64,000 bases of DNA from Phoronis australis. Taxonomy: Eukaryota > Animalia > Phoronida. This document shows positions 15,301 through 39,815 of the stretch, in pieces (positions within the stretch are counted from its first letter, which is position 1; every line of letters begins with the position of its first letter). The notes beneath the pieces are model-generated. The model was given only the letters and a program-made list of their open reading frames with translations, was not told where the DNA came from and did not search any database. The stretch is from NCBI GenBank assembly GCA_002633005.1, contig NMRA01000149.1:574487-638486 (forward strand). Direction: 5' to 3'. The translations under genes and the position numbers were made by a program.

Positions 15301-18300
15301 AATGGCTTAGCTAACATATTGCACTCTGTTCACTGGCAATACCGGCTGAAGTAACCAACCTGTCAACATTAACAGGTCAAAAAATACCACCCATTTTTAA
15401 TGCATCACTTCTTAAAGGAACGACCACCCATAATTTGAGTTTTTTTCTGAACACCACCACCCATGAATTTTTATTTCTACTGCCGTCCCCCCCCTCCCAC
15501 CCGGATTTTACTGGAACAGCCCTCAGCATGCTTTCTCAGGAAGAAGCTGCTTTTAAATATTTCCATAAAAATGTGAAAATTTTCTGAAAAATCTGCATGT
15601 CTGTTAAGCAGAATACTTCGAAGCAGTTTTGGTGGTACACGGGTTTGTTTTGATGAAAGACATGCTACATTAACAAAAATACACCATAGAAAGAAAAACA
15701 AGGTGTCTGGTAATGTTAAGGTAAACATTGGACGGTACTCAAAATATTGTGATGTTTTACTCCTTTATTAGGTGCCTGTAATAAGTATGCTTTATTTTGT
15801 TCACTAAGGTGGTGACCTGCTTATGGTGCAAGATGAAGAAAGTAAACTTTGATATGGTGCAACAGATGGGCCCCAACAACAGTCTTCAGTATTTCTGCAC
15901 TCTCAAGTGCCTGTCGATGCAGCGTGTGAAGACGCAGGCTACCTCTAACCAACCCATTAGTTGCGACCACTGCCACAAGGTGACGCCACCGCAGTACCAC
16001 CTGACTATGAGTGATGCGTCAGTGCGTAACTTCTGCTGCTACTCGTGTGTTATGACCTTCCAAAGCCAGTTCCAGACAGGCCCCAGGAAGACATCCCTGC
16101 CCCCACCCCCACCGTATAAACCTCCGATGACGCGTCCAACACACACCCCTGCCCCTGCCCCTGCCCCTGCCCAGGTGCACCCATACCGAACCATGCCAAC
16201 ACTTCAGAGAATGCCCCAGCAAGCTTCTCAACCAGGTAAGATTGATAGTTTACCCAACATTCCTATCATTTTTAATGTGAAATTTGCACGCTTCAAGTGT
16301 GTGCAGTTTTTGAAGAAACTGCACAATGGTTGTATTTTATCATATTCTATGCTACCAATCAACAAAATGTTATTTTTGCCTTAATTACATTTGTCGAGAA
16401 AACATAGACACTTCATCATACAGTGTTTTATTCCCAAGCACTACATCACAGTACCGACTCAACACGAGTAGGGGATTTGCAAGGATTCACCACTTAAATC
16501 ATTCTGAAAACATTGAGGAAACTAAGCACTGCTTCAAGTTGGTTTTTAATGACGGAACTAATCACAACAGTATGTGGTTAGCGTGTAAATGGATATTTAA
16601 GTTAACTAAGGAAATGATACCTTTTGTCTCTCTTTATTCTTCTGTCTGATCCTTGACTTTCCAGATTGATCATAAACAAATAATTGCAGGCGGTCTGACA
16701 CATCTTGTATCAGACTTGTGCAGGCCGTGCATGTGGGCCCATTGCATTGATCACCTGGAACTATTTTTGCGCTTTATTAATAGTCAAAGTCGAGCTGAGG
16801 AGCTAGAAATCTGACTCAAGGGTCTAGCAGTGTGGCCCTGCAAGACTCGAACCCATGACTTCTAGTGAAAAAAGCGGTCACACTAGGCTACACTAGGCCA
16901 CACTTGCCACACTAGGCCACACTTACCACACTAGGCCACACTAGGCCACACTTGCTACACTAGGCCACATTTACCACACTTGCCACACCACACTAGGCCA
17001 CATTGCCTCCTCTGGGAACTGATCAGTTCTCCCAACACTTCATGTTTGCATTTTTAATTTTTCCTCAAATTCCTTTTTTCCACAAATTTGTAGGTTTTCC
17101 TAATGTTTTGTCAAGGTTTGTTGATGAGTAAATTTTTTTTAGTCTAACGAATAAACATCTAATTATCAGAACTGAAATGAAATGCAATAATCATACTAAC
17201 TGTTGGTATCAGTTAGATTTTTCAGACTGTTGAGCTGTACTGTAACAATGACTCCTCTTGACACCAGAAACAGTGGTATTCTAAGACAGGCTGCCTAATA
17301 TAAGGGTGTAAAAGCTGGTCATGTGTTCATTGTTCTGTTGCTAAAGTAGTGGACAAGACGGGGATTGTCTGGAATCATTTGGCTAAGTTTTGGTTTGCAC
17401 TCTCCGTTTTGTGAATAAATTCAGTTGAATTTTCATTCTTTCAGTTCTTCTTTTTTATATTTGTAGTGCATTTGTTTTCCAGATTATAATGTTGGGCATA
17501 ATCCAGCTGATGTTTGTGTGCATTACAATGTCACAATATCAACTGTAAATATGAAATGGTCGCTCTAAGTGCTCTACCTTTTCTTACTTTATTCCTACTC
17601 TTTTGTGAAAAGTTGTTGGGAGACCTGAATTAATGAGACAGAAAGTGTTCTTTGACTCACATTCTCAAGTTTTTGTCTCAATGCAGTTTTTCCACAGCTG
17701 TTGACTCAATTCCAAACCTCCATCTGCCTCTCTATGGCATTGTTACAACACTCTGACTGGTGTACATTTACATATAATGGCAACTCAATTTGAACACAAT
17801 TCCTGTGTATATCTTGTTCAATTTCATTTTTATGTGCCTATATATGTTGGTGCATATTGCAGTCGTCTCTGACTGGGCATCTGGTGTACACTGTTGTTTC
17901 TTCTAAACCCCTTACTTGATTTTCATGAAGTTTTTTTTTGCTGTTAAGCTGATGAAGGATGACTTTCAAATAGATTCCGGTTAGTGCTGTGCCACATAAT
18001 GTACTTACTACTAAGCCAGTTGCTGGATTTTTTCACATTTGACTGATTTGTTCCTAGTGTCAAGGAGACAATACTACCCATGATTTTTGAGCCGAGCCAA
18101 CTTATATCATGAATCTGGATGCTGCTTTTAGGTTTTTGGGCCTGTCTCATCTACTGCGTTTGATCAGGACTCTGTTTCATGAAAGTTTATTTCTCTAAGT
18201 TTGATTGTTACCATGACATAACAATGTTTAACTAGCGCAACGTGATGTGATGGAATGACAGCATTGTTATTTTGGTCTGAGTAAAGACTAGACTAGTTTA

Positions 18301-21300
18301 ATGAAACCGAGCCCAACAGTTGTTGAATTCATGACTTCACAGTTTCATTCGCCATCTTGAATATTGAATTTGGTAGAGTAAACAAACCAATAGACGTATG
18401 TTTTCCATGTGAGTTATGAGTGAGTAAGGCCTGTCAAAACCAATATTTTTTGAAAGATATAGACTGCATTATCAAAAGTTTGCTTTTATGCCATTCGCAA
18501 CACATTATTTGAGATTTGTTAAAATCTCCCATTTTTCTTCCTGAGAACATCTTGTGATCAATTTTGGAGCACATTGTAAGACGTCAATGTTGTCGATAAA
18601 ATTCCGATGCTTGCAAAATCGGCCACATTTTCACCCCAGAATCACTTTTCATACTGATAGTCATCAATGCAAGGAACATCCAAGTCTTTCCAATATTTCA
18701 GTCACTAAAGCTGCGTTTTGCCCTGTTTACCTGGCTAGAAAAGAAAGTCAACTTTTACCCTCTTAAAAACGATGTCGGTATTGGTTACCGGGATAGGATT
18801 CTATTTCTGTCACCAGCAAGAATATGCTTCAGAGTTTATTGTTGTTAGCCAACCCTATAATTGCTTTGAAAATGCGCATGTACATATGCCTGGTATTGTC
18901 TATGACTTTCGGTTTTTATTGGAAGTTAAGTCATGACAAGGAATATTATGAGACCAGTATAATTTGATTTTGATTTTGATTTTAGCCTCTTAAACAGGGT
19001 GAATGCAGCTTTTTTAAAGTCTTAATGTCATTACAAGTTATTGCCCAATGAAATTTTCTGTGTCCATGCAACCCTGCAGTATTCATTGATGGGATAAACG
19101 CAGGTGCTGGTTTCATCATTATTACTATTTTAAAAGAAATCTGCATCGTATTGTCGGGTCTCCACAGAGTACAATGTAAAAATCAGCTTGTTTACTCTGC
19201 CTAGTTCTTTACCACACTACTTATGCCCAACTCATAACCAGAGGCTCGTGTATAGACCTGACTACTCCAGTGCCTTCTGGTGGTAATTTCACTTTTCTTT
19301 GAATATCTTTCTACCAGGATTGTATTTACCAATTCTCGGATGACTAGCACTTTGCACTAATGGAGTTGTTTTGAAATTTCAGAAATGTCTCGGTCTAGTG
19401 ATTGAAAATGTTCGAAAAATGAGCTCTCGTGATATCTTTGCCATTTGCATTGCACACCATATGCACATATCAACATGTGAATTCAGTTTTTGTTGTTCAT
19501 ATTTTTTTCATTGCCTTGGACCTTTCATTCCAATGCCAGAGAAGTGTTTCTGAGATAAAGCCCCATCTACACACAACTGAAAACATGCCTTGGAACACAG
19601 TACTATAATAGTGATATAGTACGAAGAGTATGGTACAACGTGTATGCAAATTTCACTGACTGTGTGAAAATTTTGTCTTGTGCCTGGTTGCATGAATAGT
19701 CCTTTTGCGAGTTTATAACAATAACGCGAGATTGTGTGAGACTCAACACTGACGTCACGGGAAGTGGGGCAATAGCTTGTCGTTTGGCCATTTGCCCAAT
19801 ACGGTAGCAGAGTGTATTCTGTTACTTTCTTCGAGTTTTTAGCCGTTTAGTTCGAAAAATGCCAAACAAGCTTTGCTGTTATGGCTAATGAAATTCAGAT
19901 TTGCACTACAATACGTTCTATCGTGTTTTGTGCTAATTTCGTCCCATGTTTTTTAAACGGGAGGTAGGCGAAATCCGCTCACTGATAAGTTTTCACCTCA
20001 TCAAAAATACATTCTACACCAAAAATTATCACCTAAAACTGCGCTTACTTCTTTCAGTGATCTTTTCTGCTTCTAAACAAATCTTCGATGAAGCATAGCT
20101 ACGGGAATTCAGTTGACTTTGGCGAAGAATTCCAACTCTGCTTTGTGGGTAGCCTACTGTTAACTTTGACCGCGCGCGCGATAACCACAAAGTATTTCAA
20201 CTGAGTCAGGGGAGTATGAGGCAAAGGCTAACGCGAGACTGAGCGAAGCGCGAGACCTGGCGCGTGACACTTGCAAAATAGCATGAGAAAATATCAAGTG
20301 AAATTTGTAAGATTTGTTTCCCTTGGACTTTTTTCGTCAACAGGCGTGATTTCACGTAACTTCCTCAAAATTGCGCCCCATGAGTGAAACTCGAGCGAAC
20401 TGCGAGGTTTTCATGGATATGTTCAAGTTATTTGTAGACTAAATTGTATCCAGAGTCAGAGTATGTGTTAATTATAACTCCATGTGCACATATGCATGTT
20501 TCATTTGATTTTATTTGCTGTATTTTGAAGTGTGTAACTTTTTATGGGGATACACTATCGCCCCTGTATGCCTGCGGCATTCAGGCCTAAACCGGGTTGA
20601 GTTCCAATTTCAGTCCGTTCACACCTTCGCACAACATAACAAGTTCACATTTTCTTCGTCCATTCACAGTTATTCCACGATCCATCTACCATCTCTAAAG
20701 TTGTGTTAACGTTTTAAGCGTAAAATTCACCACAAGAACTCCAGTAAGATTTAGCGTGTGTAGCAAAGACTCGGGGCAAAACAAGAGCAATATAGTGGGT
20801 TTTGCCCCTCTTCCGGTGACGTCACATTGACTAACGAGAAACTCGCAAGTCAGCTATTGTGGGATGTCAAGTTGACATCATGTTTTTGCACGTCATGTTG
20901 CCATTGGTGATTAATATTGTTTGTGCCAGCAGCAGTCACATTTGGCCAATGAATAAATACTGGTGTAATCCAGCTCAGGTTATCAACTGTGAACAAACAA
21001 GGCTTATGGTATAATTTGTTTATAGTATGATTAATGATACAGAATCTGTAACTTTTAACACAAAAAACAGATTTGCACCGTAAGATATGAAATATTCACT
21101 GACATGTCATGAAGTCGGCGACCGATTAGAGAAGTCAAAGAATTTTTTGACAGAGTGTTCAGAGTGTGGAAAAATCTCTGTATGTGATGCTGTTACTGCT
21201 GGTCATTTGACCTTTTGTTTTGTTGAGGTCAATACTTGGAAAAACAATTCAGCCTTGAGCACTTTGATTTAGGCCCTGTGGTGCACTTGGATGAATCAGA

Positions 21301-24300
21301 TGATGATAGCTCAGGAGTGAGTGACAATGAGCAGGGCATACAGGCTGTGCCAAGATCACGCTTTGCAACTGTTGACAACAACAGGCTACAACAGATCTTA
21401 GACGGAGTTCACTCAGACAGCACAAAGAAATTAACTATGAGCTGTGTTAACATTTTCCGTGAATATCTACGAGAAAAAGGTTTTAATGAACATTTCGAGT
21501 CCATGACTGCTCATGAGTTGGATCAGATTTTACAAAAATTCTACTTGGAAGTGCGCAATCAGCAAGGAGAGCTGTACAAAAAGTCATCAATGCTTGCAAT
21601 CAAACATGCACTCAACCGCTATCTTCAGAGCTTAAAAAGTAATATGGACATCATTAGAGGAATGGATTTCAAGGAATCCAATAAAATGGCCAAAGCTATG
21701 TCTAAAGAACTTAAGAAGGCTGGCAAAGCTGGCACCGAACACGTAGTCCCAATTCTGGAAAGTGACTTGGTGGAAATGTACGACTACTTCAGCCTTGGTG
21801 ACCCAGTTACACTCCAGCAAAAAGTATTTGTTGATTTAGTTCTGCACTTGGTTCGTCGCGGTCGAAAAGATCTTCGACAACTTCTTGTCACCGATTTTGA
21901 AGTCCAGGTAGATGCAGATGGAAAGCAATACATCCACTTGAAAAATCACAGAGAAGATGATGCTGAGAATTTAAGACGATTATATGAAATCAGAGGTAAT
22001 GATTTTGATATGAACATGATTCCAAACCAAAAGTTGTATTAATTTTTCTTTATTTTACTAAGTGTGGTACTTTTGTGGTTTCACTGATAATTGTATTATT
22101 TCTTGGATTGCATTGTTTTCACATTATAGTGCAAAATCCTCTTGCGTGAGTAACTTCAACTTCATATTTCAATTTAAAGAGTACGTGCTATTTATTTTAA
22201 TTTTTACGATCCATTGTTTTTATATTGATGCACTTGGTATTTGTATTAAATTTAAATTACAACTATAGCCACGGCAACACCGTCAAGTGTCACTGTCTGC
22301 ATATCTGGCATGGGGCTGAGAAGAATTAACTTGGACTAATCTTCTTTTTTCAGGGAGTCGAATATGTCCTGTTGTGTCCTTCCAGCTGTATCTTTCCAAA
22401 TTAAACCCCAAGTGTGAGTTCCTCTTCCAGAAGCCAAATATGGTGACTGGCCCTGCAGTATGGTACTGTAACTCACCACTAGGCCATAACACACTGGGCA
22501 GGATACTAAGTGTTATAAGTAAAGATGCCAAGCTGTCCATGGTCTACACCAACCAAAGTCTCAAGGCCACTGCATCAATACATCTACCAAACCACGCGCA
22601 ATTTGCTGGCAGGCATATCATGACTGTTCCTGGACTTAGAAATGAGCAAGTAATGAGAACTTGTGCAGTTCCCACAGGTGACCAAATGAAGGACAGAACA
22701 TCAACTGTTGTTAATGAAAAATATGGGTTGCCGCCTTGTAATTCAGGTGAATTTTCCCTTGGCTGTTGCTGTGCATGTAACTTATCATCCTCTAGTGGCA
22801 AATCCAGAGGAAGCTCTTTGATGATATCTTGTCTGGAAATAAGGATCTGATCAACAGGTTAACTGATACAGAACTTGACTGAATTCCAGACGCCTTGGTC
22901 ACAATCAGGGTGCAGTGTATCTGTGTGAATATTTGTTTGTTTCGTTTTCTTTCTTTCATTGTATTTATTGGTTTGTTTTGTTTACAGACTGGACATAGAA
23001 TATATTTATATGAATGTTGTAACATTGAGAAATAAGGGGCTCGTTCCAAGAAACTAGCTTAAGGTCATCATCGGTCTTAAGAATCTAAGATTTGTCTTTG
23101 TCAAAGATTTTTTTGTGATTAAATAAAGTATCTTAACTAAATTCGACTTCATGTTTCTGTCGTAACTTCAAGTAAATTCTCACTTTGTCTCAAGTCGATC
23201 TAAAGTTGTCAAGATGCCAATCATTTGAATTTATCGAGGAAATTTAATCAAACAAATTTAAGAGGTTATTGCAACCTCCAAACTGGAATGCTTCAGTCAT
23301 GTAAATTTCTTTTTTCTTCTCAAAACCCCTGACAAACGGTTGTTCATTTTGTCGTTGTTTAATTTAACCTCTAAACGTGGAGAGCTTCACTTCCATTTTG
23401 TTATGCGACTACTGTGCTTTAGCCTTACAAACCAGGGGTAACTGTTTCGAAAATGGCATTTTGTGGAAATCAGATGTCAAATCCAAAAGTTTTAGTGCCC
23501 AATCATCTAAAGCTGATTTCTTTAATAAAATTTCTGAACATGTCTGCAGAAGAATTTGGAAAGGGGGTCTTGAGACAAATCTCCAGTTGGAAACTTTAGA
23601 GGAACTTTCGATCACTTTCTTGGATCTGATTTAAGATGGCCTTTAGTTTTAACTTAACTAAGTTAGTTTTCTTGGAAGGGGCACCTAAGAAGTACATACA
23701 GAGCAATGTGGATAGCAAGAAGACATTGCATGTGTTTGTCAGGTTGTAATAAAAACATAATTTAACTGTCAATGGAAACTTGTTTATTTGTTCACAGAAA
23801 TAATGACCACCAGTAACACAATAAAGCATTAAACATGTGAGCTGACTTCACACTTTCATCTTAAAAATCTTCACTTCTTTGATGGCAAAAATGAGACGCT
23901 GTTTCATACATCAAGTTAATTTATCAAATTTTATCTAACTGCCTTGTGGACGAAGTCCAGTTTGTTGATTTCTTCTGCTCTAGTTTCTCTGTGGGCTTTT
24001 TGTGTGTGGTCTTGACTATATTACTCTATGTTCAGGTAAATGGAGAGAGCAGGTATTGCATGAAGAGAACAATCTACTAAACAGTAGGTCACATGCAATA
24101 CTACTACACCATCAATCAACAAAACTGTGTCTGTTGTCTAGGATAGCTGAGATTGGATGTTGATATGGGCACATTACCATAGCTGCTATACAAACCTGCA
24201 GTTTGCCAAAGAAAAGAAATTTTGATTATTAGCTCGTACTTCTAATAATCTGGTTTCAACTTTGTCGTTACTCAAATACTATCTTTGGAAGGAGCTGTTG

Positions 24301-27300
24301 GTTTGGTATTGCCTGATACCAAGACGAGCTCTTAAAGTGGCCCGCTGTTTAAGCCAACTTATTGGGTCAGGTCTCTAGAAATAAAGATTTCTAAGAACAG
24401 CAAGCTATCGGTTCTTTCCAAGCCCTCAAATCACCTCTAATCTGAAAAAGTAACAATGAAGTCAAGACCAGATTAATATGACAAGTTTCCTTAATAGTGA
24501 TTTAGATTTCTGGCAGAGGAGGCTTTAAAACATTAGAATGTTATTTAGTAATTCTCAATTATGTTTCTTGTGTTATTTCAAATACTGTGAAGAAATTTGA
24601 AAGGCACAGGATGCAAAACTTGTTCATCTAGAACAAAACATTTATTATCAATCGACAAGAGTTATAACTATATTTTTTTAATAATAAAATTGGTCAACAA
24701 ACCACAGTTATTGTGTGTAATTCATACTTTCATTTCTCATATCTTGCACATGAGTGAGAGTGACTAGGTTTATCATAGTTTGAGAATCACTAGATTTTTG
24801 TTGGCATTGACAAACAAACAACCTGAATGTGACCAAGGTGAGAGAAATGTTTTTGCGCAAACCTTATCAAACCATTTGCAGGAATTACCTTCATCAACTG
24901 GCAGCTTCATTTGAAACTTGACTTGTGCCAGTGTGACCATGTATTATTGGAACAGTTGTTGAACATAACAGTTCTTCACTGTAACATTACTTGTGTATTT
25001 GTCTCTTCCTGTTGTTGGTGTGTTGTATCGCTCTGAGGTTTAGATTTCATTGTTGTAGACTTACTACTCTTGTAGTGTTGAAATATTTAATATTCTGTTG
25101 ATATAGGCGTTCTTCAAATTTGTCTCAAGTCTATGATAGCAAAGATTAATCGTGTAATAAAGCATCTATTGACTTCCTATCTGAATATTCATTACTTTTC
25201 TCCGATTGTCCTCGACAGTGGTTCCAGTCCAACCTCCCCAAGCATCACTTCCTCAGATTGCCAATGTCATGTCACTAGCCCCAGCACCAAGTCAAACAGC
25301 CAGGCAGAAATCTACGGAGACAACTAAGTCATCACCAAAGACCCCTAAGGTGAGGTGTACGTCTAACCTGTTATTACCCTGTTCAGCTCTGTTATGACTA
25401 TTCAAAAAGGTACCAAACGTTTTACTCTGTTTAAACCTATGTGTAAATTTGCACCTATGTCTGGAATTTGGCGCCTGTGGCTAAACTATTTATAGGCAAA
25501 ATCAAGGAGCAAATTTATAAAGTAATAGGTGAGAGAATCGCATGTGTTGATATGCATTCAATTTAACGGACAAGTCAAGTTTCACTCGTCTATTATTTTA
25601 TAAATTTGAATGGAATGATTTTAAATTATTGAAAAAAAAAACATTCCAAGAAAGGGTGGATGTGCCTAAATATTCACTTATACTGTGTATGCTGTGTGAT
25701 TGGTGTGATTTGGTCTCGCAACAGAACACTTGGCATAACTTCCAACTTCCATGTCTTTGGGCTATAATTACTCTGCGCGTGCAAGTGCAGAGTACTGTAG
25801 TTGTTCCTGAGTTTTCTTCAATTTTATTCTTATTACTCTGCGGGTACAAACGCAGAGTTTTACTGTTCTACATATTTTATCTTCTTATTACTCTGTGCGT
25901 TCAAGCGCAGAGTTTTACTGTTCTACATATTTTATCTTCTTCTTATTATTATTATTATTGCTCTGCGCATGCAAGCGCAGAGTACTGTTGTTCCTGGGTT
26001 TTCTTCAGTTTTATTACTATGTGCGTGCGAGCAGATTTTGACCTAGACACTTCAAATTCACAAGTCTTGACTGGTACGTCTAAGTCAATTCGAAATACAA
26101 AGTTTCAGGTCATTTAGTGCAACCATGGGGTCATTAGGTGCATTTTTCTTCAGAAAATTTGTCCTTTTCATTCATCAAGTATTCTGTTGTGTCAACCGTT
26201 AGACTACTGTGATTCTCAGCATTAAGCAAACTTTTCACGGGCTTTGCAAAAATTCTCCTAAAGACGCTTATAATGCACCGGATAGGGTCAATTAGTGCAA
26301 AGGTCATCTAACGTTCAAAATGTTATATCTAGTACATTTTTCAACGAATTCTTTTGAAGTTCAGCACACTAGTGTAAGTCACAATGCCAACTGAACGCCC
26401 TACTTTACTACGCAATAGGCCTAACCAATCAGAAAAATAGGTCGAATATCACTGAGTGCAAACTAAAATTTTAAGCTAGAGATTTCAAAATTACATATCT
26501 GTTTAGTAAATGTGATTGAGTTTGAATTCTAAATTATCAGATCATTTGGTGCGCCCATGGGGTCATTGGATTCATTTTTCTTCTGAAAGTTTGACCAATT
26601 CACTCATGTTGTATTCTGAAGTGCTTAAAGTAAAACATCTGTGATTCTTAGCATTAACCACACTTTAAATCGAGTTTACATTTATTCCCTCATCCGGGCT
26701 CAAAATGCACCGAAAGAGGTCAATTAGTGGAAAGTTTATCAAAATAGTAACATGTTATTTTTCCTACAATTTTAAAGAATTCTTTTTCAAATTGGTTAAT
26801 GGGTTGCTGTCAGTAACTTCCCATAACAATTCGTTTAATGCACACGCGTAGAGTCCATTATTGTCACGCCGTGACAACGATCTTTTTAGTTCCACCTGCG
26901 AAATCTCTGAGTCTAGGGCCTGTTCCAAGAAAACTGACTAAGACAAGTCAATTTTAAGATAAAACTCAAGTCTTACGTCAATTCCAAGAATTTGATCTGA
27001 AAGATGTGTTTGCATGCTCCTAACTATGCTAATGTATAGCAGGAACGAAACGACAGTGCTATTTGAACATCATCTACGCTACACTTGTAAATGTGAAAAT
27101 AAAAAATTCTGCAAATAGGTGACCTTTGCACTAATGATGTACTTTGGGGGCTCACATAACCGGCATCATGCTGTGTTGTTCCTCAACACCACATCATGAT
27201 ATTTAGTGGACACGATAGAGTGATTTACGGTGGATCATTTTCGACACAAAACTTGTTCTTAAAAACATTTGACAATTTTCAACCTACTTCATGTTCACAT

Positions 27301-30300
27301 GGTAGCTATGTGTAGTGTTTCTAACGAATTTGACGAGGAGTCACAGAATAAGGAATTAGCGTGTAAGTTCCAATTTGAGTTTTTGCTTAAGTTTTGTCAT
27401 AAATTTGACGTAACTTACTGGATGTGGAAGTTTCAAAGTTTGGAGGTTTGGACAAATTTCAAGTCAAAAGTGAACTTTTAATTGGTTACTTGGATTTGGC
27501 CCCTGGTCTGTTGTCCCTCTTGTTGTCTATGTAACATTCTTGGGTGCTTACTGCATGCTCTAATTGGCCCCTGGTCTGTTGCCCCTCTTGTTGTCTATGT
27601 AACATTCTTGGGTGCTTACTGGATGCTCTAATTGGCCCCTGGTCTGTTGCCGCTCTTGTTGTCTATGTAACATTCTTGGGTGCTTACTGCATGCTCTAAT
27701 TGATCATATAAATGGTTTTAATTGGTTTTTTAATTGTTGTTTTTGCTCCTTGTGGCAAAGCCTTACCTGTGTACAAAAAATGAAACCATGAAATTTAGGT
27801 ATTTTTGCCTACTGTGAGAACAAAGTTGTAATGGGAAGGTTTTGTTTTCTGTGAAGGTTTCGATGCCCCAAACCATCGTGCAAAAGGAAGTCATCATTCA
27901 GTACCCGCCTCCCAAACACGTGAAAAACAAGTCCCTTCTGTGCAAGCCTTATAGTCAGACCAAGGCTACGAGTTGCCGGCCTCACTCTCAAGCAAAGGAA
28001 ACTCAGACAGGTGAGTGGTTCAAATGCATTTTGCGACAATGGTTCAGTTTTACTGTGGTAGGCTCACAAAATTGTTGAAGCAGTTCTTGATAACTTCTTG
28101 ATCTTGTGAGAATGTTTAACCTCAGTGAATGTAGAAAGCTTCTATTTTGTAACTGTTCTCGTGTGTGTTCAAATTTGTTTATAATGAGTGTCTGCATTTG
28201 TTGTTTCTCAAATAGGAATTATCAACTTAATATTGAGATATCACAAGAAATGGTGTGAATTGCTTGTGATTGTATGGAATGTGTTTGGATTTGGATGTTT
28301 TCATATTTGATTGGTTCGAGTTTTTTTGGTTATGCATTTGAGTTTCGAAGAAATTTTAATCACTGATAGTGAAACAGACCTCAGTGGATTTACTGTGAAG
28401 TTGTGATGGTCAGAAAAATGACATATTTGAAGGTATGTGACTGGAGAACTAGTGAAGCTCAACCGGTGATCCCAGAATGACTATTAATGCTCATTGAGAA
28501 GAGAACAGTTAGTTATTCATGATCCTTCCTCTTCTGCCTCGGGTGTTGTGTGGATGATAAAAAAGACTTCCGAAAACCCCAATCATGAAAAAGCCTTCAT
28601 GGTAGCACTTTGGGAAATAGGGTTTAATATATCCTCCGTGTCACACTTTGAGGATTGTTTTGCATGTCTGGCAAATGTGGAAAAATGTGTTCAATACTTT
28701 CTCAGTTTTTGGTCTTTAAAGGGAATGTTGTATTTCACGTTGACCAGTTGTCTGTAGAAGCATCATTGGACTTCTCTCATAGTGGCCAACCTCCCATCAA
28801 AGTGAAAACTTCCTCTTATAACATACTTTAAAGCAGTACGCAGCGCCACCTTTGAAAATCTTGTTTTGTTTTTAGTATTCCTTATTTCAGGTGATTGAAC
28901 CACTTAGCAGATGGAGTTAATGATTTCTTCAACATAAAGATTCACTGCACCTGTAACTTGATCTATTTTAGTTTGTAGTTTGTGATTTCAGCTTGATTGA
29001 ATTAGTGTCGTGTGGATCTTTAAAAGCTTTGGCTGCATGAGGATGTTTGGAGCAGCAGTACATGTTTCTGAATACCCTCCAGAAGTCTTTTTGAACACAT
29101 GGAGTACTGCTGAAATAATCCATGTACTCTAACGTACTTGCCCACATGCCTTATTTTGTGTAGGAATATAACTGTACAATACTTTCTTACTTCGCTTGTA
29201 TCAGTGTACCCATGATCGATAGTGTACCCATGATCGATAGTGTACCATGATCGATAGTGTACCCACGATCGATAGGGTACCCACGATCGATAGGTTACCC
29301 ACGATCGATAGTGTAACCACGATCGATAGTGTACCCACGATCGATAGTGTACCCACGATCGATAGTGTGCCCACGATCGATAGTGTACCCATGATTGATA
29401 GTGTACCCATGATCGATAGTGTACCCATGATCGATAGTGTACCCACAATCAAAACCCTCGCAATTTTTGTTGAATAAACGAGTATTTAATGGTCTTATGC
29501 ATTACAGCGAATTTCGTTCAATCAAGTCTCAGACGCAAACAGCTTGTACTGCGTGCATGACATGTTGTTAACTGAATCACCCGTGTGCAAAATCTTTTTT
29601 TAATGCGTGTAGTAACAAGTTTCAAGTAGCAGAGGAAGCAGATGATAGGCAAGTTTCCATTTTTGAAAAAAATGCAAATTTGAAACAGAAATGTAGATTG
29701 AATTGTACTGAAAACTCCTACATTTATTTTAATCGAATTACTACTTGTCAGGAAATCACTACGACTTCTAGAGACGCGTTTTCAGAAACTTCAAGTTGTG
29801 GGGTGTTGATCATTTTTTGTGGGTTAAGTGAGTTGTCTTCTATCTCTTGTAAAATTTTAGTCACTTGACTGATTTTTCTCTTCGGGACACCATTGCGAAC
29901 CCCAGAAAAATATGTTTTATTGCAATGAGTGAGCTGTTCCAAAAATAGCACAGAATGTACTTGGAAGGACTAAATAAGTTAAAAATGTTTTGAAAATGGG
30001 TACACTGTTTCTACACATGAGTCCTGATTTATTTACCAAAATCTACCTTTCTTGTAAATGTCCACCCTAGGCTTCTCAAAACTTTTTCTTTTTAATTGCT
30101 CATGATATAAATGCCACATTCAATTCAATATTTTCTTTACAGATGGTGAGCCAGAGAAGATGCCTGTAGTAATCCCTGTGCCAGTCCCCATCTACATCCC
30201 TGTACCCATGGCCATGTACTCACTGCCCACACCCTTCCCATTTCCTGTTCCTATTCCTGTCCCCATTCCATGTTTTATACCAACTACGAAAAAGTCAACT

Positions 30301-33300
30301 ACGTCCATTTTGAAACACATCAAGGTAGGTTTCAGTGTGTTCTGCTGCTTAACTTAACTGAGTTATGTTTATGTGCTACAATACTAGAGGAGAATTACTG
30401 TGTTGATGCCAAATGGCAACTGTGTAGTTGTATTTGTGAATGGTGTCTTACATCTTGGAACTGAAACAGATTTCCATTCAGTTTGTGAGATCTCCATGTA
30501 AAGTGAATAAAGTGGGTTCTTTAACATGCATGATTTTGTCTGATTTAACATTGATGACGTTTTCTTACACTTTAGGAAATCCAGGAACGCCTTCCATCAG
30601 ATCCTCTGGAGGCAGAGCTACTAATGATGGCTGAGGCTGTGGCATGCTCCGAGAAAGTGACGGCTGAGTCAAGCGACGAGAGTGACAAAGAAGATGGACC
30701 TGGTGAGACCGTAGTCAAGTTGAACTATCCATTTACTAACTGTAAACATTCGGTTTAGTGGTTAGGGCAGTTGAATTGGTAAACGGAAAAGTTCGGGGGT
30801 GGGTAATTACCAGACATGGGTGCTTAAATGGAAAATTTTTTGAGAAATCAGTGGTGGGTGCTTGCTCGAACATGGGTGCTTAACTCTTGAGTCGAAGAGT
30901 CGCCCTGGCCTGCCATGACTTTTGAAATTGAAAACTCAAATGATTTGTCAGATTTTGATGGAACTTGTCACAAAGGTATTTTTTGCACAGGCACCAGATG
31001 ATTTTCGGGTTTGTACTACTTTAGCGCTACCTGTTGGCCATTTTAGTTTTTGACAAGGCATTGCTCTTCTTTTGATTACTGCCGAAATAGAAATTTTTGG
31101 TGAAACTTGACACAAGGATTAATGGCTGGGATGTGCTGGAACCTGTTGATTATTGGACAGATTGGTTTGCTATTGGCAAATGACATTTTATTTTTTGTTC
31201 AAATATTGCTTGTCTGTTGATTGTGATCAAAATGGCTTGACATATTTTTGGATGAACCTTGACAATGGGATGTTTGGTTGTAATGTGCCAGCACCAGTCA
31301 ATAAAAATGGCTGACCTGATTTATGTAATTATATTAAACGAAACTAATAAATACCCTAGAAGGGTGTGTGTTGCAGTGGTGGGTGCATTTCAACGATTTT
31401 CGTTGTTGTTCAAGTCAATGCCACGCAGTCCTGTGCATTTTGAGTAATCTTGATCAGCCTTAACTCATTGTGTGCTAGAAACGCTGTCTCTTTTTGTATA
31501 AAACATTACGTTTTACTGAGGAGAGAGATTAATGTGTTACTGTTGTTTCAGAGAGTGGGTTAGACTCCTACCAAGAAACACCCACAGCACTGAACACAGA
31601 CTCTAACACGTTCGGTGAAGACATTATGCAGATGGCACTTCAGATGGCTGAGATGACAGAGCCTGTTATGGACTTAGAGGACTCGCTGGCTCCTGTCCCT
31701 GTCAATCAAAGTAAGTAGCTGATGGTGACACTTATCTGTTAATGTTTTGTTGCATATTTTGGTGACTGAGGGAGCTTTTACGAGTGTGTTCCTTCATTCG
31801 TAGTGGTAACAATTTCGCTTTATTCCCCCTGTCTAAGTAGAGAATAGTTTGATGCCTTAGAACTAGCATTAGTTGATAGAATTTTTGCGAGATGTTGTTC
31901 CTTTCATTTTTGTGTTTATTTTTCATAGCTCAAGGGGACTTTTCCACCATTGACTCGGAGAGTGGCATTTTCACAACTGGTGCGGCAAAACGTGGACGAA
32001 AACGTCAGTCAAGATCGTCCAAGCGTAACGTTGGAAAGCGACCGCGTACTGCTTCTCCCACTCCTGTCGCACCCCCAGTACAGGTGGCGCCCTCTCCAGA
32101 TGCAGACATGCACTTGAAGTATATGTACGGGGTGAATGCCTGGAAACACTGGGTGGCCCAGAAAAACCAACAGCTGGCGGAGAACTCTGATGGACGTGGC
32201 CGTACAAAGAAGTTCAAAACAGATATCTTGGCTTGCACAGCAGATGAATTAAATTATTCACTGTGTTTGTTTGTTCAAGAAGTCCGGAAACCCAATGGAT
32301 CTGAATACGCTGCTGACAGCATTTATTACCTCTGTTTAGGTATTTACTTATTTTGTCTTCCACAAATTCAAATGCTCTGTGGTCTAATACCATTACATTG
32401 ACATTTTGTGGTTGTGATTTCAATTTCAAATACTTACAGTATACATCTTCTGTGCTGACACTGCTTTTGTTTACGTACTGTTTTGAGGTCAAAATACCTC
32501 ATCTCTTAGAAACCTGGATGGTACTTTGCATCTGGCCAATAGATGAATACAAGAACCACTAGCACCAACTGCCCACATTATCCCAAACACTGATGTGTTT
32601 CTTTTTCATGAAGCAGAGCAGTTATTGTCTCAGCTACGGCCAGTCCACCCTGGGTATCAAAATCTGTGGTGCTGGTCAAAAAACTTCCAGGAATGTCTTA
32701 AGTGACTGTAAACCTGCCTTTCATGACAAAAAATGAGTTAGACCTGTCATCGTTTTGAAATTGGTCTGAAATTGTTTCTTAGTCAAATTTAGTATGATTT
32801 CTGGGCTTGGAAGGAACTGATAGTTGGTGATTGGTTGAGTTGAGTTGTAACAGTTTGTCAGTGTATTCCCTCACCATGGTTGAGTTGAGTTGTCACAGTT
32901 TGTCAGTGTATTCCCTGAGCATGGTTGAGTTGAGTTGTCACAGTTTGCCAGTTGGTGATTGGTTGAGTTGAGTTGTCACAGTTTGTCAGTTTATTCCCCG
33001 AGCATGGTTTCTAGCTATATCAAAATGTTACTTCTTTGCAAGACCAAAAATAACTGTCTGAGTAAGGAACTAGCTGAGACTTATTGTATTCCATAAGGTT
33101 CTAAATCAAAATTTAGTTTCTTCAATGTAAAGCAGGTTTATTGGTTTCTGCATTTGAAAACCACTGTCAGCTGGAATACTCACTAAACATGATGTGGTGT
33201 GCTTATTATTTTTTCAAGTGTTCAAACGATGAGATTCGTATTGGTAAGGCTGGGTAAATATTAACTACCAGCATTATAAACATCTTCCATTAGCTGTTAC

Positions 33301-34771
33301 AGTCTGTTGTCATTTTTCATCTTTGTCCTGTAATATACCACTTTTCTTGTATTTGTTGTCTTTCAGGTATCCAACAATATCTATTTGAAAATGGTCGCAT
33401 CGACAACATCTTCACTGATTTCTACTATGAGAAGTTTACTGGATGTCTCAACAAAGTGATTGGTCTATATGAAGCGCGTCTTAACGGTGAAGGTAAATTT
33501 ACCTCGCAGATGTTTTTTACTGTAAATTTAACAGACACAACTGGTGATTCTCAAGATGCATTTTCCAGCACTGTTGTTACCTTCTGATGTTTCCATGTAT
33601 ACACAATGGTGGCTGATTCATGATGATTTATATGTTAGTAACATAAAAAATTCATGAATAACTGTGTGACATATTGAAGGATTTGGTATTTTAGTCAATA
33701 GTGGACTGTTTGCCACATGTTAGAACCCTTGTCATGAGAACAGGACCCTTATCTCTCTCTACAAACCACAATTATAACTCTTACTACACATAAAACACCC
33801 CTGCCAGCCAGTTCTTTTCTCTTGTGTTAAGGATTCATCCTTTAGGTATCACTTGCTACATTTACTGGTAATTATAACAGAAGAAGAGGGGCACTCAAGA
33901 GTCCCCAGGCCTCCCGTCCAAACAACCAGAAAAACCTGTGCGATATTAGGGGTGAAGGAAACTCTTCCTGTCAATTGTGGTTGGTCTCCACAGTGATTAC
34001 TATAATCATTATTATCCTGTGACAGGTATTCTAGTTTGTCGTATTGAAGAGGAGCACCTGTGGGAGAGCAAGCAACTTGGTGCCCACTCACCCCATGTCC
34101 TACTCAACACCCTGGTCTACTTCAACACACGATATTTCTTCTTGCGCTCGCCAGAGGCTCACCTCAAGTTATCCTTCTCACACATTATGAAGCAGTGGAA
34201 GAAGACGGCTGTAACGAGCTCTAAGAATCAGAGCCGTAGTGTGTACTTGCGCTACTATAATCCGGCGATGACAGGTGAGAGGCAGGGGAGGGAGTGTTGT
34301 GGGTTCCAAGTGCTCTCTAATGGAGCTGTTTGTACTGTGAGTTGGGGACTATTATTTATTCTTCATAAAATTTTGTTCTTGCATGTAGATTTACTTGTGT
34401 CTGATTTGACTTTAAATTCTCTTTTATACCTATTTCATTAAATACCTGACAGTTAAGATTGTGTACCAACTTCAGTTAATTTTTTCGGGGTCTGTGAAAA
34501 GTCTTGCATTCTCTGATGACATACCTTAATCTACTCAAGTTGATAAATAATTGCTGTGTTTACTGAACTTCACATGATACGACAAAACTTTTCTGAAAAT
34601 GGTCTGGGTATGTGGGCCCGCCATGCTACGACATCAAATTTTTATGGTTGTCCACTCAGTGATAAGTCCACCTGTGTGGCACCCACCCACCCACCCACCC
34701 ACCCACCCACATACACACACACACACACCCACATACACNTAAAAATATAGGTACATATCACAAACATGTAT

Positions 34772-34803
<32 letters not shown>

Positions 34804-35910
34804 CAACAACCATGCGATTTAGGGGATAGATAAAATTTCATTGCCAGCTGTTGAGACACACAAATCACATTCTACTGAAATTTGAAACTATATCTATGTT
34901 TTGTTATGGTTTCTAGGGATTGAAGTGAGAACAACTGTGTTGGCTGTTCTCCCTGTGGATTTTATTTGAAATCAGATGTGATGTAATGTACATGAGATCT
35001 GTTGACTATTCTGAGAATCAGTGGTTTTATACTGTACGTTGTGTCTATTCAGATCTGAAGAAGAGTCGAGGTCGTCGAGAGCCAGATGAGTCCAATGGTC
35101 TGGAGCAATGCGAGAATCTTGAGAACCCTCTTAGATGTCCTGTGAAACTGTACGAGTTCTACCTGTCAAAATGGTAAGGCAAGCAGGGGTGATTAGCTGG
35201 GTGTTTTATTGCACAAAGTCTGTATTGAGTAACTGAAAGCTTAACGTTGGTATTTCATTTCAGACCTCTCGCTTCTTTTGCTTTGTATGCACATCAGTTG
35301 CAAAACTTTATCATCCTTTGTTGCCCTTGTGCCTCCATTCTTTGTTACATATAAACTACAGCACTGAAAAAGTGGGGGGCTATAGCTTCTCAATCCCCCT
35401 GTGGTGTACCGCCCATAAACCATGGGTGGCTCAGCACTGAAAAAAGTGGGGGCCTATAGCCCCCCAAGCCCCCTATGGTGCGCCGCCCATGAACTATGTG
35501 TGAATTTTCATCTTTTTTGGTTTCCAGTTTCCTCTTTTTCTTTTTTATCATTATTTTGACTTTATTCATGCACAAATGTTTATTTCAATTAAATTTTACA
35601 ACACAAAATATTTCTATCATACAAGCCTATTTGAAGAACAATACATCACTAGGAAAATTTTCCTCTTTTTCGTCATTGGTCATTCCAAGCCCTGAGAGAT
35701 CAATATTGTTTCTGTTGCAGCCCAGAGAGCATCAAGAACCGTAGTGATGTGTTCTACCTCATACCGGAGCGGTCGTGTGTGCCTGACAGTCCGGTTTGGT
35801 ATTCCACACAAGCGCTCGGGTTAGAGGCTACAACCAAAATGATGAACCGTGTGCGGACCGTACGAGAAATACAAGAGTCGTTCCTACTCCACCCCAGTCC
35901 AACTGACTAA
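3373..35910 (+). CDS. ZMYM4: Zinc finger MYM-type protein (ZMYM2/3/4 / woc family), multi-exon, 5' end not found
   Basis: Phase-consistent GT-AG exons: 3373-3524, 4900-6092, 6333-6605, 7401-7477, 9385-9459, 10628-10730, 11842-11945, 12377-12945, 13377-13701, 15809-16235, 25219-25349, 27857-28010, 30143-30324, 30576-30702, 31552-31710, 31929-32339, 33367-33492, 34026-34274, 35053-35173, 35721-35910 (TAA). The sum is 5148 nt, a multiple of 3. Family motifs: CxxC...FCxxxC fingers, [90 protein letters not shown]. The symbol denotes the family; it is probably co-orthologous to ZMYM2/3/4. Confidence 0.93.
4900..6092 (+). CDS. Gene 1 large acidic, low-complexity exon
   Basis: Core of the 409-aa ORF 4880-6109, D/E/S/T-rich. 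Acceptor ttttag|A at 4900, donor G|gtaaat after 6092; phases fit both neighbouring exons. Confidence 0.85.
7684..9282. mobile_element. Non-autonomous Kolobok-like DNA transposon (~1.6 kb)
   Basis: Perfect 14-bp TIR AGGAGAATGCCACC / GGTGGCATTCTCCT with TTAA on both sides (7680-7683, 9283-9286). Purine-purine termini with a TTAA TSD fit Kolobok. Confidence 0.8.
9589..9763. repeat. 27-bp minisatellite, ~6 perfect copies
   Basis: Unit ATTGGGAACATGCTTGATACTATTTTT. Confidence 0.95.
11238..11829. repeat. 50-bp minisatellite spanning an assembly gap (N 11363-11542)
   Basis: Unit GAATAGACTGGTGARGGTGGCTGGATTCTTTGTTGCAGAGTTTGGTGTGT at 50-bp spacing. Confidence 0.95.
14208..14440. repeat. 31-bp minisatellite, ~7 copies
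   Basis: Unit CGCTGGTGTCTGTACCACCTACTTACATGTT. Confidence 0.93.
14760..15522. mobile_element. MITE with GGGCTGTTCCAG termini and a 3-bp TSD (PIF/Harbinger- or Zator-like)
   Basis: GGGCTGTTCCAGCAAAATC...GGGAGGGGGGG versus CCCCCCCTCCC...GATTTTACTGGAACAGCCC, with TCA flanking both ends. Confidence 0.8.
16830..17003 (-). mobile_element. tRNA-derived SINE head with an amplified A-box region
   Basis: Minus strand: tandem GTGGCCTAGTGT / GTGGCAAGTGT units followed by a B-box GGGTTCGAGTC. Confidence 0.5.
18166..18314. mobile_element. Small MITE remnant
   Basis: GGACTCTGTTTCATGAAAGT / AATGAAACCGAGCCC imperfect inverted ends; a similar left end recurs at ~49643. Confidence 0.4.
19696..20858. mobile_element. 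Degenerate TIR element with CRE/ETS-like subterminal motifs
   Basis: The left end AATAG..TTGCGAGTTT...TGACGTCACGGGAAGTGGGGCAA is the inverted counterpart of the right end TTGCCCCTCTTCCGGTGACGTCA...AAACTCGCAA..CTATT. Confidence 0.55.
21273..22850 (+). CDS. Intronic two-exon Crypton/KCTD1-like DUF3504 tyrosine-recombinase-like module, probably catalytically dead (alternative exons of gene 1, or a nested gene)
   Basis: Exon A 21273-21995 (tttag|GC ... G|gtaat). Exon B runs from 22354 (tttcag|GG) to a donor at 22746 (G|gtgaat) or to the stop at 22850. Motifs: [122 protein letters not shown]. Confidence 0.85.
23036..23685. mobile_element. PIF/Harbinger-like MITE
   Basis: Imperfect TIR GGGGCTCGTTCCAAGAAA / TTTCTTGGAAGGGGCACC with TAA on both flanks. 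Confidence 0.65.
25765..26890 (+). mobile_element. Helentron-associated (HINE/DINE-1-like) non-autonomous element with a tandemly repeated 5' end
   Basis: Repeated TTACTCTGCGC.TGCAAGCGCAGAGT hairpin units (25765-25990) and two ~430-bp internal degenerate repeats (near 26105 and 26538). The 3' end has CGCGTAGAGT, the stem-loop GTCACGCCGTGAC and TAGTT. Confidence 0.55.
26916..27503. mobile_element. Degenerate Harbinger-like MITE related to the 23036 element
   Basis: Left end GGGCCTGTTCCAAGAAAACT, right end CTTGGATTTGGCCCC; TSD not clean. Confidence 0.4.
27496..27701. repeat. 68-bp tandem repeat x3
   Basis: TTGGCCCCTGGTCTGTTG...GCTTACTGCATGCTCTAA recurring at 68-bp spacing. Confidence 0.92.
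29203..29447. repeat. 18-bp minisatellite, ~13 copies
   Basis: Unit AGTGTACCCAYGATCGAT. Confidence 0.95.
32822..33008. repeat. Imperfect tandem repeat (~37-46 bp) x4
   Basis: Recurring TGGTTGAGTTGAGTTGTCACAGTTTGTCAGT. Confidence 0.85.
34681..34802. repeat. (CCCA)n/(CA)n microsatellites
   Basis: Seen directly in the sequence. Confidence 0.9.
35360..35492 (-). mobile_element. Duplicated hAT-like MITE terminus fragments
   Basis: Two copies of CAGCACTGAAAA(A)AGTGGGGG..TATAGC...CCCCT.TGGTG..CCGCCCAT. Confidence 0.4.
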
Positions 35911-39383: not shown

Positions 39384-39815
39384 ATGCCAAAAGGTTGCTG
39401 TGTACCGGGATGCACCCACTATGACCTCGCTCGAAGCTTAGGTTTTGCCTTTCACCGGTTTCCGTCCGATGACGAAGTTCGCCGTAAATGGATCATTCGT
39501 ATTACGGATTTCCCGTTAGCGGCAAACGCTTCCAAGCAAGAGGTGCAAAAATTAAATTATCGAGTATGCGGGAAACATTTCCTTCCCTCGGACTACGAGA
39601 GTGAAATATACTCGGAAATTATGAAGCTTCCTCCAAAACATCGCCTGAAAAGCGACGCCGTGCCGTCGATATTTCCATCAGATTCAAAACCTTTGAGCAA
39701 CTTTACAGCTGTGCAGACAAGTGATAGCAACTGCAAGCCAAGTTCATCTGTTAAGTCTGAATCCAGTGAAGAGGTCAGAGAACCAGACTTTGACAAGTTT
39801 GACAGCAAGGCCAAG
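39384..39815 (+). CDS. THAP (C2CH) zinc-finger DNA-binding domain exon
   Basis: MPKGCCVPGC...FHRFPSDDEVRRKW...RVCGKHF...LKSDAVPSIF has the complete C2CH ligands, the conserved P/W/F/P residues and an AVPTIF-like box at the extreme N-terminus. Phase-0 donor AAG|gtattt after 39815. Confidence 0.93.

What the first reader, a model, noticed from the sequence alone, without database searches (positions are those of the whole stretch)
21273..22850. A second, catalytically dead Crypton recombinase module sits splice-ready inside the ZMYM gene, giving a possible swappable or double DUF3504 domain
Seen: two same-strand exons with an unbroken frame lie in the intron directly after the last MYM-finger exon. 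The host donor at 16235 is phase 1 and the acceptor at 21273 is phase 1. Exon A is 723 nt; exon B to the donor at 22746 is 393 nt. Both are multiples of 3, and the next host exon (25219) is phase 1. Known: the ZMYM2/3/4/woc C-terminal DUF3504 derives from an ancient Crypton tyrosine-recombinase transposon. This module resembles the KCTD1/Crypton-like type (RRGR..LR, YTNxSLxAT) rather than a copy of the host domain. Inference: a second, independent Crypton capture by the same finger array. Possible products are (i) skipping = normal ZMYM, (ii) fingers + new domain ending at stop 22850, or (iii) a protein with two recombinase-derived domains. This would replay the event that created the ZMYM family.
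Basis: partly seen in the sequence, partly recalled or inferred. Interest (0 to 1): 0.88.

Follow-up and report, generated by a model that had tools for sequence, protein, structure and literature searches.

The report
Second dead transposon domain inside ZMYM
An invertebrate's ZMYM chromatin-regulator gene, whose tail already comes from an ancient Crypton transposon, carries a second, separately acquired and catalytically dead Crypton recombinase in an intron; it is weakly transcribed and is likely spliced in as a minor variant that would give the protein two such domains, but its link to the zinc-finger exons was not seen.

Summary
Two same-strand exons (21273-21995, 22354-22746 or to stop 22850) encode a CryptonA tyrosine recombinase, in phase with an intact ZMYM/woc gene. 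It is no copy of the host domain (24% over 80 aa, against 42% to a free Crypton). Four of six catalytic residues are lost but only 5 of 36 other conserved sites, and the frame is open, which neutral decay rarely gives: likely domesticated. In three RNA runs (about 18% of each read) the skip junction 16235>25219 is seen (6 reads); no module junction reaches the listing threshold. Depth arithmetic implies about 3 reads end at donor 22746 and leave the region. Four reads cross the 5' acceptor unspliced, none spliced. No module in the tandem paralogue or 41 distant ZMYM loci. The idea has precedent: KIAA1958, KCTD1b and ATF7IP in print, and predicted abalone, scallop and arachnid ZMYM-like proteins with a second Crypton domain. 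Verdict: a real, probably functional, lineage-specific capture; fusion to the fingers likely but unproven.

The parts
15810..16235 (+). Last MYM-finger exon of the host ZMYM/woc gene; phase-1 donor
   Evidence: zf-FCS E 5e-9; donor joined to 25219 in 1+5+0 reads
19695..20858 (.). Multi-copy repeat with imperfect inverted ends (MITE-like), upstream of the module; not part of it
   Evidence: High depth on both strands, 90-95% alike reads, loose ends at 19695 and 20858; inverted arms 19750-19772 / 20802-20824
21228..21272 (+). In-frame 5' extension of exon A; likely true splice acceptor at 21228 (inferred)
   Evidence: Score 8.4, top 1.2% of 491 AGs; stop codon at 21224-21226 just before; product open; no read spliced here
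21273..21995 (+). Exon A: acidic linker, Crypton core-binding helices and first half of the catalytic domain (Arg at 21857 and Lys at 21941 kept); first in-frame ATG only at 21437
   Evidence: model pLDDT 89, Cre-like fold
21996..22353 (+). Intron inside the module, likely inherited from the element
   Evidence: Donor and acceptor in the top 2.5%; zero depth in 3 of 3 raw-read runs; 16 of 30 short relative ORFs break off at the same motif, by my reading
22354..22746 (+). Exon B: second half of the catalytic domain, with His->Gln (22554), Arg->Lys (22563), His->Leu (22635), Tyr->Cys (22662); strong phase-1 donor at 22746
   Evidence: donor in the top 0.4% of 564 GTs; about 3 reads inferred to end here
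22747..22850 (+). Read-through tail to the stop codon (terminal form)
   Evidence: one X2 read inferred to cross the donor unspliced, three more at about 22860-23045
22988..22998 (+). Strong acceptor that would add three residues and a stop after exon B (candidate terminal exon, untested)
   Evidence: Score 12.1, top 0.2%; no read spliced to it
25219..25349 (+). Next host exon, phase-1 acceptor
31929..35910 (+). Host's own Crypton-derived QRICH1/DUF3504 domain, five exons, intact
   Evidence: Pfam hits for all five exons, E 4e-9 to 3e-30; model

Best explanation
A CryptonA transposon recombinase sits in the intron after the last finger exon of ZMYM, has lost four of its six catalytic residues and its own start codon, and is likely kept by selection as a pair of cassette exons that would be spliced into a minority of ZMYM transcripts. 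Shown: position, phase, open frame, catalytic loss, Cre-like fold, sense transcription at low level, and the skip form as the only listed splice form. Inferred: entry from donor 16235 through the acceptor at 21228 (rather than 21273), removal of the inherited intron, exit by donor 22746 to host exon 25219. The minor product would be fingers + dead recombinase + proline-rich linker + host DUF3504; a terminal form (stop 22850 or exon 22988) may coexist. The added domain would grip DNA or a partner without cutting, as proposed for other DUF3504 domains.
For: Catalytic sites lost 4 of 6 against 5 of 36 other sites conserved in >=90% of 30 intact Cryptons, Fisher p 0.013. At the matching 14% neutral change a 371-codon frame stays free of stops in 3.8% of 2000 simulations, about 2e-4 with an assumed indel rate. 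The 27 conserved residues before the first ATG are as close to the family consensus as in relatives (0.44 vs median 0.48, quartiles 0.41-0.56), and 70 stop-free codons occur in 49 of 6588 flanking windows: the part before the ATG seems translated, so it needs an upstream exon. 72 of 78 relatives with the RF motif have a Met within 30 residues before it; the module has none. Donor 22746 top 0.4%, acceptor 21228 top 1.2%. X2 depth on the module 2.1 against intron background 0.55 (p about 0.002, rough fragment count). Bin 22713-22784 holds 68 letters in X1 (2 x 34) and 106 in X2 (72 + 34), 34 being the distance to 22746, and these runs have exactly 2 and 1 non-repeat reads that run on unlike the stretch; a shared 3' clip point fits only at 22746.
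Against: No module junction was listed in either lay (threshold 3 reads per run). At the 5' end 4 reads (2-3 fragments, X2 and X3) cross both acceptors unspliced and none is spliced. X1 is not clearly above background (0.82 vs 0.40, p 0.2) and X3 is below it. The X1 clip also fits a shared 5' point at 22638-22642 beside a weak AG, and the destination of the clipped reads is not shown. No read bridges 21995>22354. No orthologue: none in 41 loci, none above 49% identity. The selection argument assumes that the parent element had the consensus residues and uses an assumed indel rate.
Confidence: 0.55

Rival explanations
1. The module is an alternative first exon. A promoter in the intron (near 21170 or in the repeat at 19695-20858) starts a finger-less transcript, read from the ATG at 21437 or a hidden small exon, that joins the host's 3' exons: two recombinase-derived domains without MYM fingers, like the arachnid proteins in layout and KCTD1b in origin.
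For: All reads at the acceptors are unspliced, and the X2 and X3 fragments both begin at about 21176-21178 by depth arithmetic. The 3' donor appears used. P0090 and P0093 begin with the recombinase near the same point.
Against: The conserved RF and T motifs and 70 open codons lie before the first ATG. X1 has intronic reads further upstream, 20985-21122. The tool listed no place where many molecules begin. The CRE/ETS-like motif at about 20810 (motif names recalled) is part of the repeat's inverted end.
Confidence: 0.2
2. A decaying Crypton insertion with no function: the reads are nascent host RNA with occasional mis-splicing, and the phase match is chance plus splice sites inherited from the element.
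For: Depth is near background in 2 of 3 runs; no listed junction; absent from the paralogue and from 10 of 10 loci that span the intron; the inner intron seems ancestral to the element; many relatives in the search are also degenerate.
Against: Selective loss of catalytic sites with an open frame and in-frame deletions; a top-ranked in-phase donor at the end of the domain; reads ending at it.
Confidence: 0.17
3. Swappable tail only: the module is an alternative terminal exon that replaces the host DUF3504 (stop 22850, or exon 22988), as in KIAA1958 and the abalone gene model; no double-domain protein is made.
For: One read past the donor and three at about 22860-23045 in X2; the strongest acceptor of the intron at 22988; precedent P0176 vs P0175.
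Against: The clipped reads do not land at 22988 (zero depth there in X1), so they leave the region; read-through reads may be unspliced RNA.
Confidence: 0.08

Closest known systems
KIAA1958 isoforms a and b (Kojima and Jurka 2011, PMC3212892)
   Same: One gene with two different Crypton-derived DUF3504 domains, 26% identical to each other, on separate exons; splicing not confirmed by experiment in that paper.
   Different: There they are alternative isoform-specific tails without introns; here the second domain is an internal two-exon cassette, in phase at both ends, in a MYM-finger gene.
Crypton recombinase in an intron of ATF7IP (PMC3212892; Frith 2022, PMC9004415)
   Same: Intronic, same-strand Crypton with a predicted fusion by alternative splicing.
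   Different: Ancient (jawed vertebrates), nearly intact catalytic site in some birds, host has no earlier Crypton domain.
KCTD1 isoform b (PMC3212892)
   Same: CryptonA recombinase close to free elements, added as an extra variant of an existing gene.
   Different: N-terminal, single exon, fused to BTB; conserved across jawed vertebrates.
Haliotis ZMYM3-like isoform X1 (XP_048236651.1, XP_071112637.1) and Mizuhopecten ZMYM2-like X1-X3, X5 (database gene models)
   Same: ZMYM with a second Crypton-derived module as a predicted splice variant.
   Different: A different intron (just before the host domain), a terminal swap, and for Haliotis a different Crypton clade (AU test rejects one clade with the module). 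Predictions; I found no paper on them.
Arachnid proteins XP_054707023.1 and XP_067141093.1
   Same: MYM finger(s) with two recombinase-derived parts in one chain, catalytic site dead.
   Different: Recombinase first, second domain only a half; separate clade (AU p 0.04).
Host-transposase fusion by alternative splicing (bioRxiv 10.1101/2020.05.07.082677)
   Same: Insertion in a host intron, element-borne splice sites, fusion beside the parental transcript.
   Different: That survey covers tetrapod genes; no dN/dS test was possible here.
Zincore, SEPHS1:QRICH1 bound to ZFP91 on DNA (PDB 9HJT)
   Same: A domesticated DUF3504 solved on DNA with zinc fingers; exon A's model matches it weakly (E 9e-4, TM 0.36).
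   Different: Belongs to the host-type clade; no binding was tested for the module; the primary paper was not read.

Membership tests
CryptonA transposon (active element) | Tyrosine-recombinase domain that groups with CryptonA | tested here: met
   42% over 340 aa to P0007; in a 98* set with intact-tetrad Cryptons; Cre-like fold, E 2e-4
CryptonA transposon (active element) | Catalytic R-K-H-R-H-Y intact | tested here: not met
   R and K kept; H, R, H, Y replaced by Q, K, L, C
CryptonA transposon (active element) | Free-standing ORF with its own start codon before the RF motif | tested here: not met
   First in-frame ATG at codon 55, after the motif; 72 of 78 relatives have a Met within 30 residues before it
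CryptonA transposon (active element) | Many dispersed copies | not testable with these tools
   No genome held; one copy in the window; 30 of 32 non-repeat RNA reads at >=99% and 2 at 95-99%, which says nothing on silent copies
Domesticated DUF3504 gene (Kojima and Jurka 2011) | Catalytic Tyr and second Arg lost | tested here: met
   criterion
Domesticated DUF3504 gene (Kojima and Jurka 2011) | PF12012 above the curated cut-off | tested here: inconclusive
   Exon B alone 19.2 bits vs 29.7; the domain is split by the intron and the joined protein was not scanned
Domesticated DUF3504 gene (Kojima and Jurka 2011) | Expressed as part of a host transcript | tested here: inconclusive
   Sense reads present; 3' donor use inferred; no listed junction
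Domesticated DUF3504 gene (Kojima and Jurka 2011) | Conserved at the orthologous place in distant species | tested here: not met
   0 of 41 loci, 10 of which span the intron; their finger exons are only 50-76% identical, so close relatives were not sampled
Duplicate of the ZMYM/woc/QRICH1 DUF3504 | Closer to the host domain than to free Cryptons, inside the host clade | tested here: not met
   24% over 80 aa to the host domain; host clade 100* excludes it. A sister position of the long host branch is not rejected (AU p 0.13)
Host-transposase fusion by alternative splicing | Parental and fusion transcripts coexist | tested here: inconclusive
   Parental shown (6 reads); fusion inferred only
Host-transposase fusion by alternative splicing | dN/dS below 1 between species | not testable with these tools
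   No orthologue found; only an indirect test

The most novel reading that the evidence does not exclude
ZMYM/woc is a repeated landing place for Crypton recombinases: after the founding capture in the bilaterian ancestor, unrelated Cryptons were added again in this animal, in abalones, in a scallop and in arachnids. Here the new domain is a cassette that lets one gene switch between one and two dead recombinase domains behind the same finger array, giving a single-chain pseudo-dimer that clamps DNA or partner fingers differently.
Probability: 0.35. Interest if true: 0.72.

Novelty: new variant of a known kind. Interest (0 to 1): 0.5.

Why it matters
The DUF3504 domain of ZMYM2/3/4 and QRICH1 is disease-linked and poorly understood, and its capture predates bilaterians, too old to trace. 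A young second capture in the same gene, still beside the parental splice form and near free Cryptons in sequence, would let one compare steps of domestication: which residues go, which stay, how the exon is admitted. With the mollusc and arachnid models it suggests that MYM fingers repeatedly gain from a dead recombinase, which is testable. The general route is known, so it extends a pattern and does not overturn one.

Tried and rejected
Whole-genome copy count: no genome is held. Run search: no RNA holder listed; three raw-read runs and one contig set of the same species label were added; the contig set X4 gave 0 records on the module, no evidence either way. Promoter reading of the motif at about 20810: rejected, it lies in the inverted end of a repeat. 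Copy of the host domain: rejected. Orthologue searches: exon A 'longer' 1 hit of 1249 candidates at 35%, 'near' 1 of 353 at 42%; these word-based searches missed relatives that one search found, so they are weak. PDB sequence search with exon B: 0 hits. Terminal repeats around the module: none convincing among the 20 of 39 direct families and 25 of 49 inverted pairs shown. One search failed on my own off-by-one exon ends, corrected. Earlier-findings look-ups by five words, by sequence and by place were empty. No complex was predicted.
Full report
Observation. The host is an intact ZMYM/woc gene: finger exons, proline-rich linker and a five-exon QRICH1/DUF3504 domain. Counted from the last finger exon, the skip, terminal and double products are open for 757, 547 and 1129 residues. 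The best named relatives of the finger exon are molluscs at 55-66%, so the animal is probably a spiralian without a close annotated relative; this is inference.

What the module is. Exon A has 3166 relatives at E<=0.001 in 1.84 billion proteins, of which the best 150 were listed, none above 49% identity. The joined module is 42% identical over 340 aa to an intact scallop Crypton, P0007, and 24% over 80 aa to the host domain. In a tree of 75 rows (8 near-duplicate rows left out) it lies in a 98* set with free CryptonA proteins, apart from the host clade (100*), the abalone module and the arachnid domains. On 28 of these rows the AU test rejects a clade with the abalone module (p 4e-95) and marginally with the arachnids (p 0.04), but does not reject a sister position of the long host branch (p 0.13). 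A model of exon A from 78 sequences (pLDDT 89) matches Cre and Tre recombinases (best E 2e-4) and, weakly, QRICH1 in Zincore. The inner intron is likely the element's own: 16 of 30 short relative ORFs break off just after the same motif, by my reading.

Dead, but kept. Against 30 relatives with an intact tetrad (of 72 aligned), the first Arg and the Lys are kept; His, Arg, His and Tyr are replaced. That is 4 of 6 catalytic sites against 5 of 36 other sites conserved in 90% (p 0.013). Neutral change of 14% leaves the frame without a stop in 3.8% of 2000 runs, about 2e-4 when indels are assumed at a tenth of substitutions, and hits 4 of 6 given sites in 0.5%. The first in-frame ATG is at codon 55, yet the segment before it is as conserved as in relatives and follows 70 open codons, seen in 49 of 6588 flanking windows. 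I infer selection on a protein that is entered from an upstream exon. No orthologue exists to test this by dN/dS.

Splice sites. A matrix from 10 donors and 11 acceptors of the host ranks donor 22746 in the top 0.4% of 564 GTs, donor 21995 and acceptor 22354 in the top 2.5%, but acceptor 21273 at the median of 491 AGs. The in-frame acceptor 21228 (a GAG, which is uncommon; recalled) is in the top 1.2%, and the frame opens exactly there. Acceptor 22988 is in the top 0.2% and would end the protein three residues after exon B. The matrix is small and crude.

RNA. Three raw-read runs, 18-19% of each read, and one contig set were laid twice. Host exon reads have their first mate on minus, and so do all module reads: same sense. 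The skip joint has 1, 5 and 0 reads. No module joint reached the threshold of 3 reads in a run. On 20985-23144, 9 of 43, 21 of 32 and 2 of 15 laid reads are from this locus; the rest are a repeat at 23035-23068. Module depth against repeat-free intron is 0.82/0.40, 2.14/0.55 and 0.06/0.28; host exons reach about 5 in X1 and X2 and 0 in X3. The inner intron has no read in any run, where about 1.5 fragments were expected by background, so this alone is weak. The bin that holds donor 22746 contains 68 letters in X1 and 106 in X2, that is 2 x 34 and 72 + 34, and these runs have 2 and 1 non-repeat reads that run on unlike the stretch. For X1 a shared 3' clip fits only at 22746; a shared 5' clip at 22638-22642 also fits, beside a weak AG. 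So about 3 reads (2 fragments) likely use the donor and leave the region, most simply to 25219; this is arithmetic on binned depth, not a listed joint. With about 2 fragments expected, seeing none does not refute, but it does not support.

Distribution. The tandem paralogue at 44-60 kb lacks the module. None of 41 ZMYM loci from metagenome contigs holds one; 10 span the matching intron, and some of them appear to be the same species. All are distant. The capture is lineage-specific at this resolution.

What is known. Kojima and Jurka 2011 (PMC3212892; abstract, results parts 2-3 of 3 and section 16 read; supplements not opened, and its Additional file 5 on invertebrate WOC fragments may bear on this) describe four domestications, KIAA1958 with two DUF3504 isoforms, KCTD1b and the ATF7IP intronic recombinase, and propose DNA or protein binding. 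Passages only were seen of PMC13465315 (12 of 42 places), PMC9004415, bioRxiv 2020.05.07.082677 (12) and PMC13538652 (6; it only cites Zincore). Database models show a second Crypton module in ZMYM of two abalones and a scallop, as a terminal swap at another intron, and recombinase-finger-half-recombinase proteins in a spider and two scorpions. Six searches (listings only, 20 of 127 and 20 of 82 shown in two of them) gave no paper on a second capture by ZMYM; subscription journals are not covered.

Verdict. A real, independent, dead CryptonA domain in a ZMYM intron, probably under selection and weakly expressed. It works most likely as a minor cassette (0.55); an own promoter (0.2), decay (0.17) and a terminal-only form (0.08) remain. 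It is not an active Crypton and not a copy of the host domain. It resembles known Crypton captures; the internal cassette in a gene that already has such a domain, and its recurrence, are what is new.

Noticed in passing
window 44994-59536: A second, diverged tandem ZMYM paralogue (exons 66-86% identical in DNA). It lacks the module; no match was found for the acidic N-terminus or for the host exons 30143-31710.
   Followed up: partly
window 39384-39815: An exon with a THAP domain (E 2e-16), an ATG and a donor, 5 kb before the paralogue's first finger exon: possibly a THAP-ZMYM fusion, a further transposon-type domain. Not tested by reads.
   Followed up: no
window 40451-42428 and 53340-55691: Long inverted pair of diverged repeats (70-78% identical) that brackets part of the paralogue; the second lies where the missing exons would be expected.
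   Followed up: no
P0176/P0220 (Haliotis), P0181/P0223-P0225 (Mizuhopecten): Predicted ZMYM isoforms that swap the host DUF3504 for another Crypton-derived tail at the same junction; the abalone one keeps His, Arg, His and Tyr but not the first Arg.
   Followed up: partly
P0090, P0093, P0152-P0155: An arachnid family: dead recombinase, MYM finger(s), ZMYM-like linker motif and a second half recombinase.
   Followed up: partly
P0072, P0098, P0128, P0003: Other host fusions of Crypton domains in the hit list: a limpet protein with an fn3_4 domain, a snail C2H2 array, a BTB protein, and a lancelet protein with two DUF3504 domains.
   Followed up: no
window 19695-20858: An abundant MITE-like repeat with imperfect inverted ends, transcribed on both strands from many copies.
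   Followed up: partly
window 21176-21178: Fragments in two different runs appear to begin within 2 bases of each other, by depth arithmetic; a start site or chance.
   Followed up: partly
window 11207-11829: A 50-base tandem array interrupted by the window's run of 181 N.
   Followed up: no
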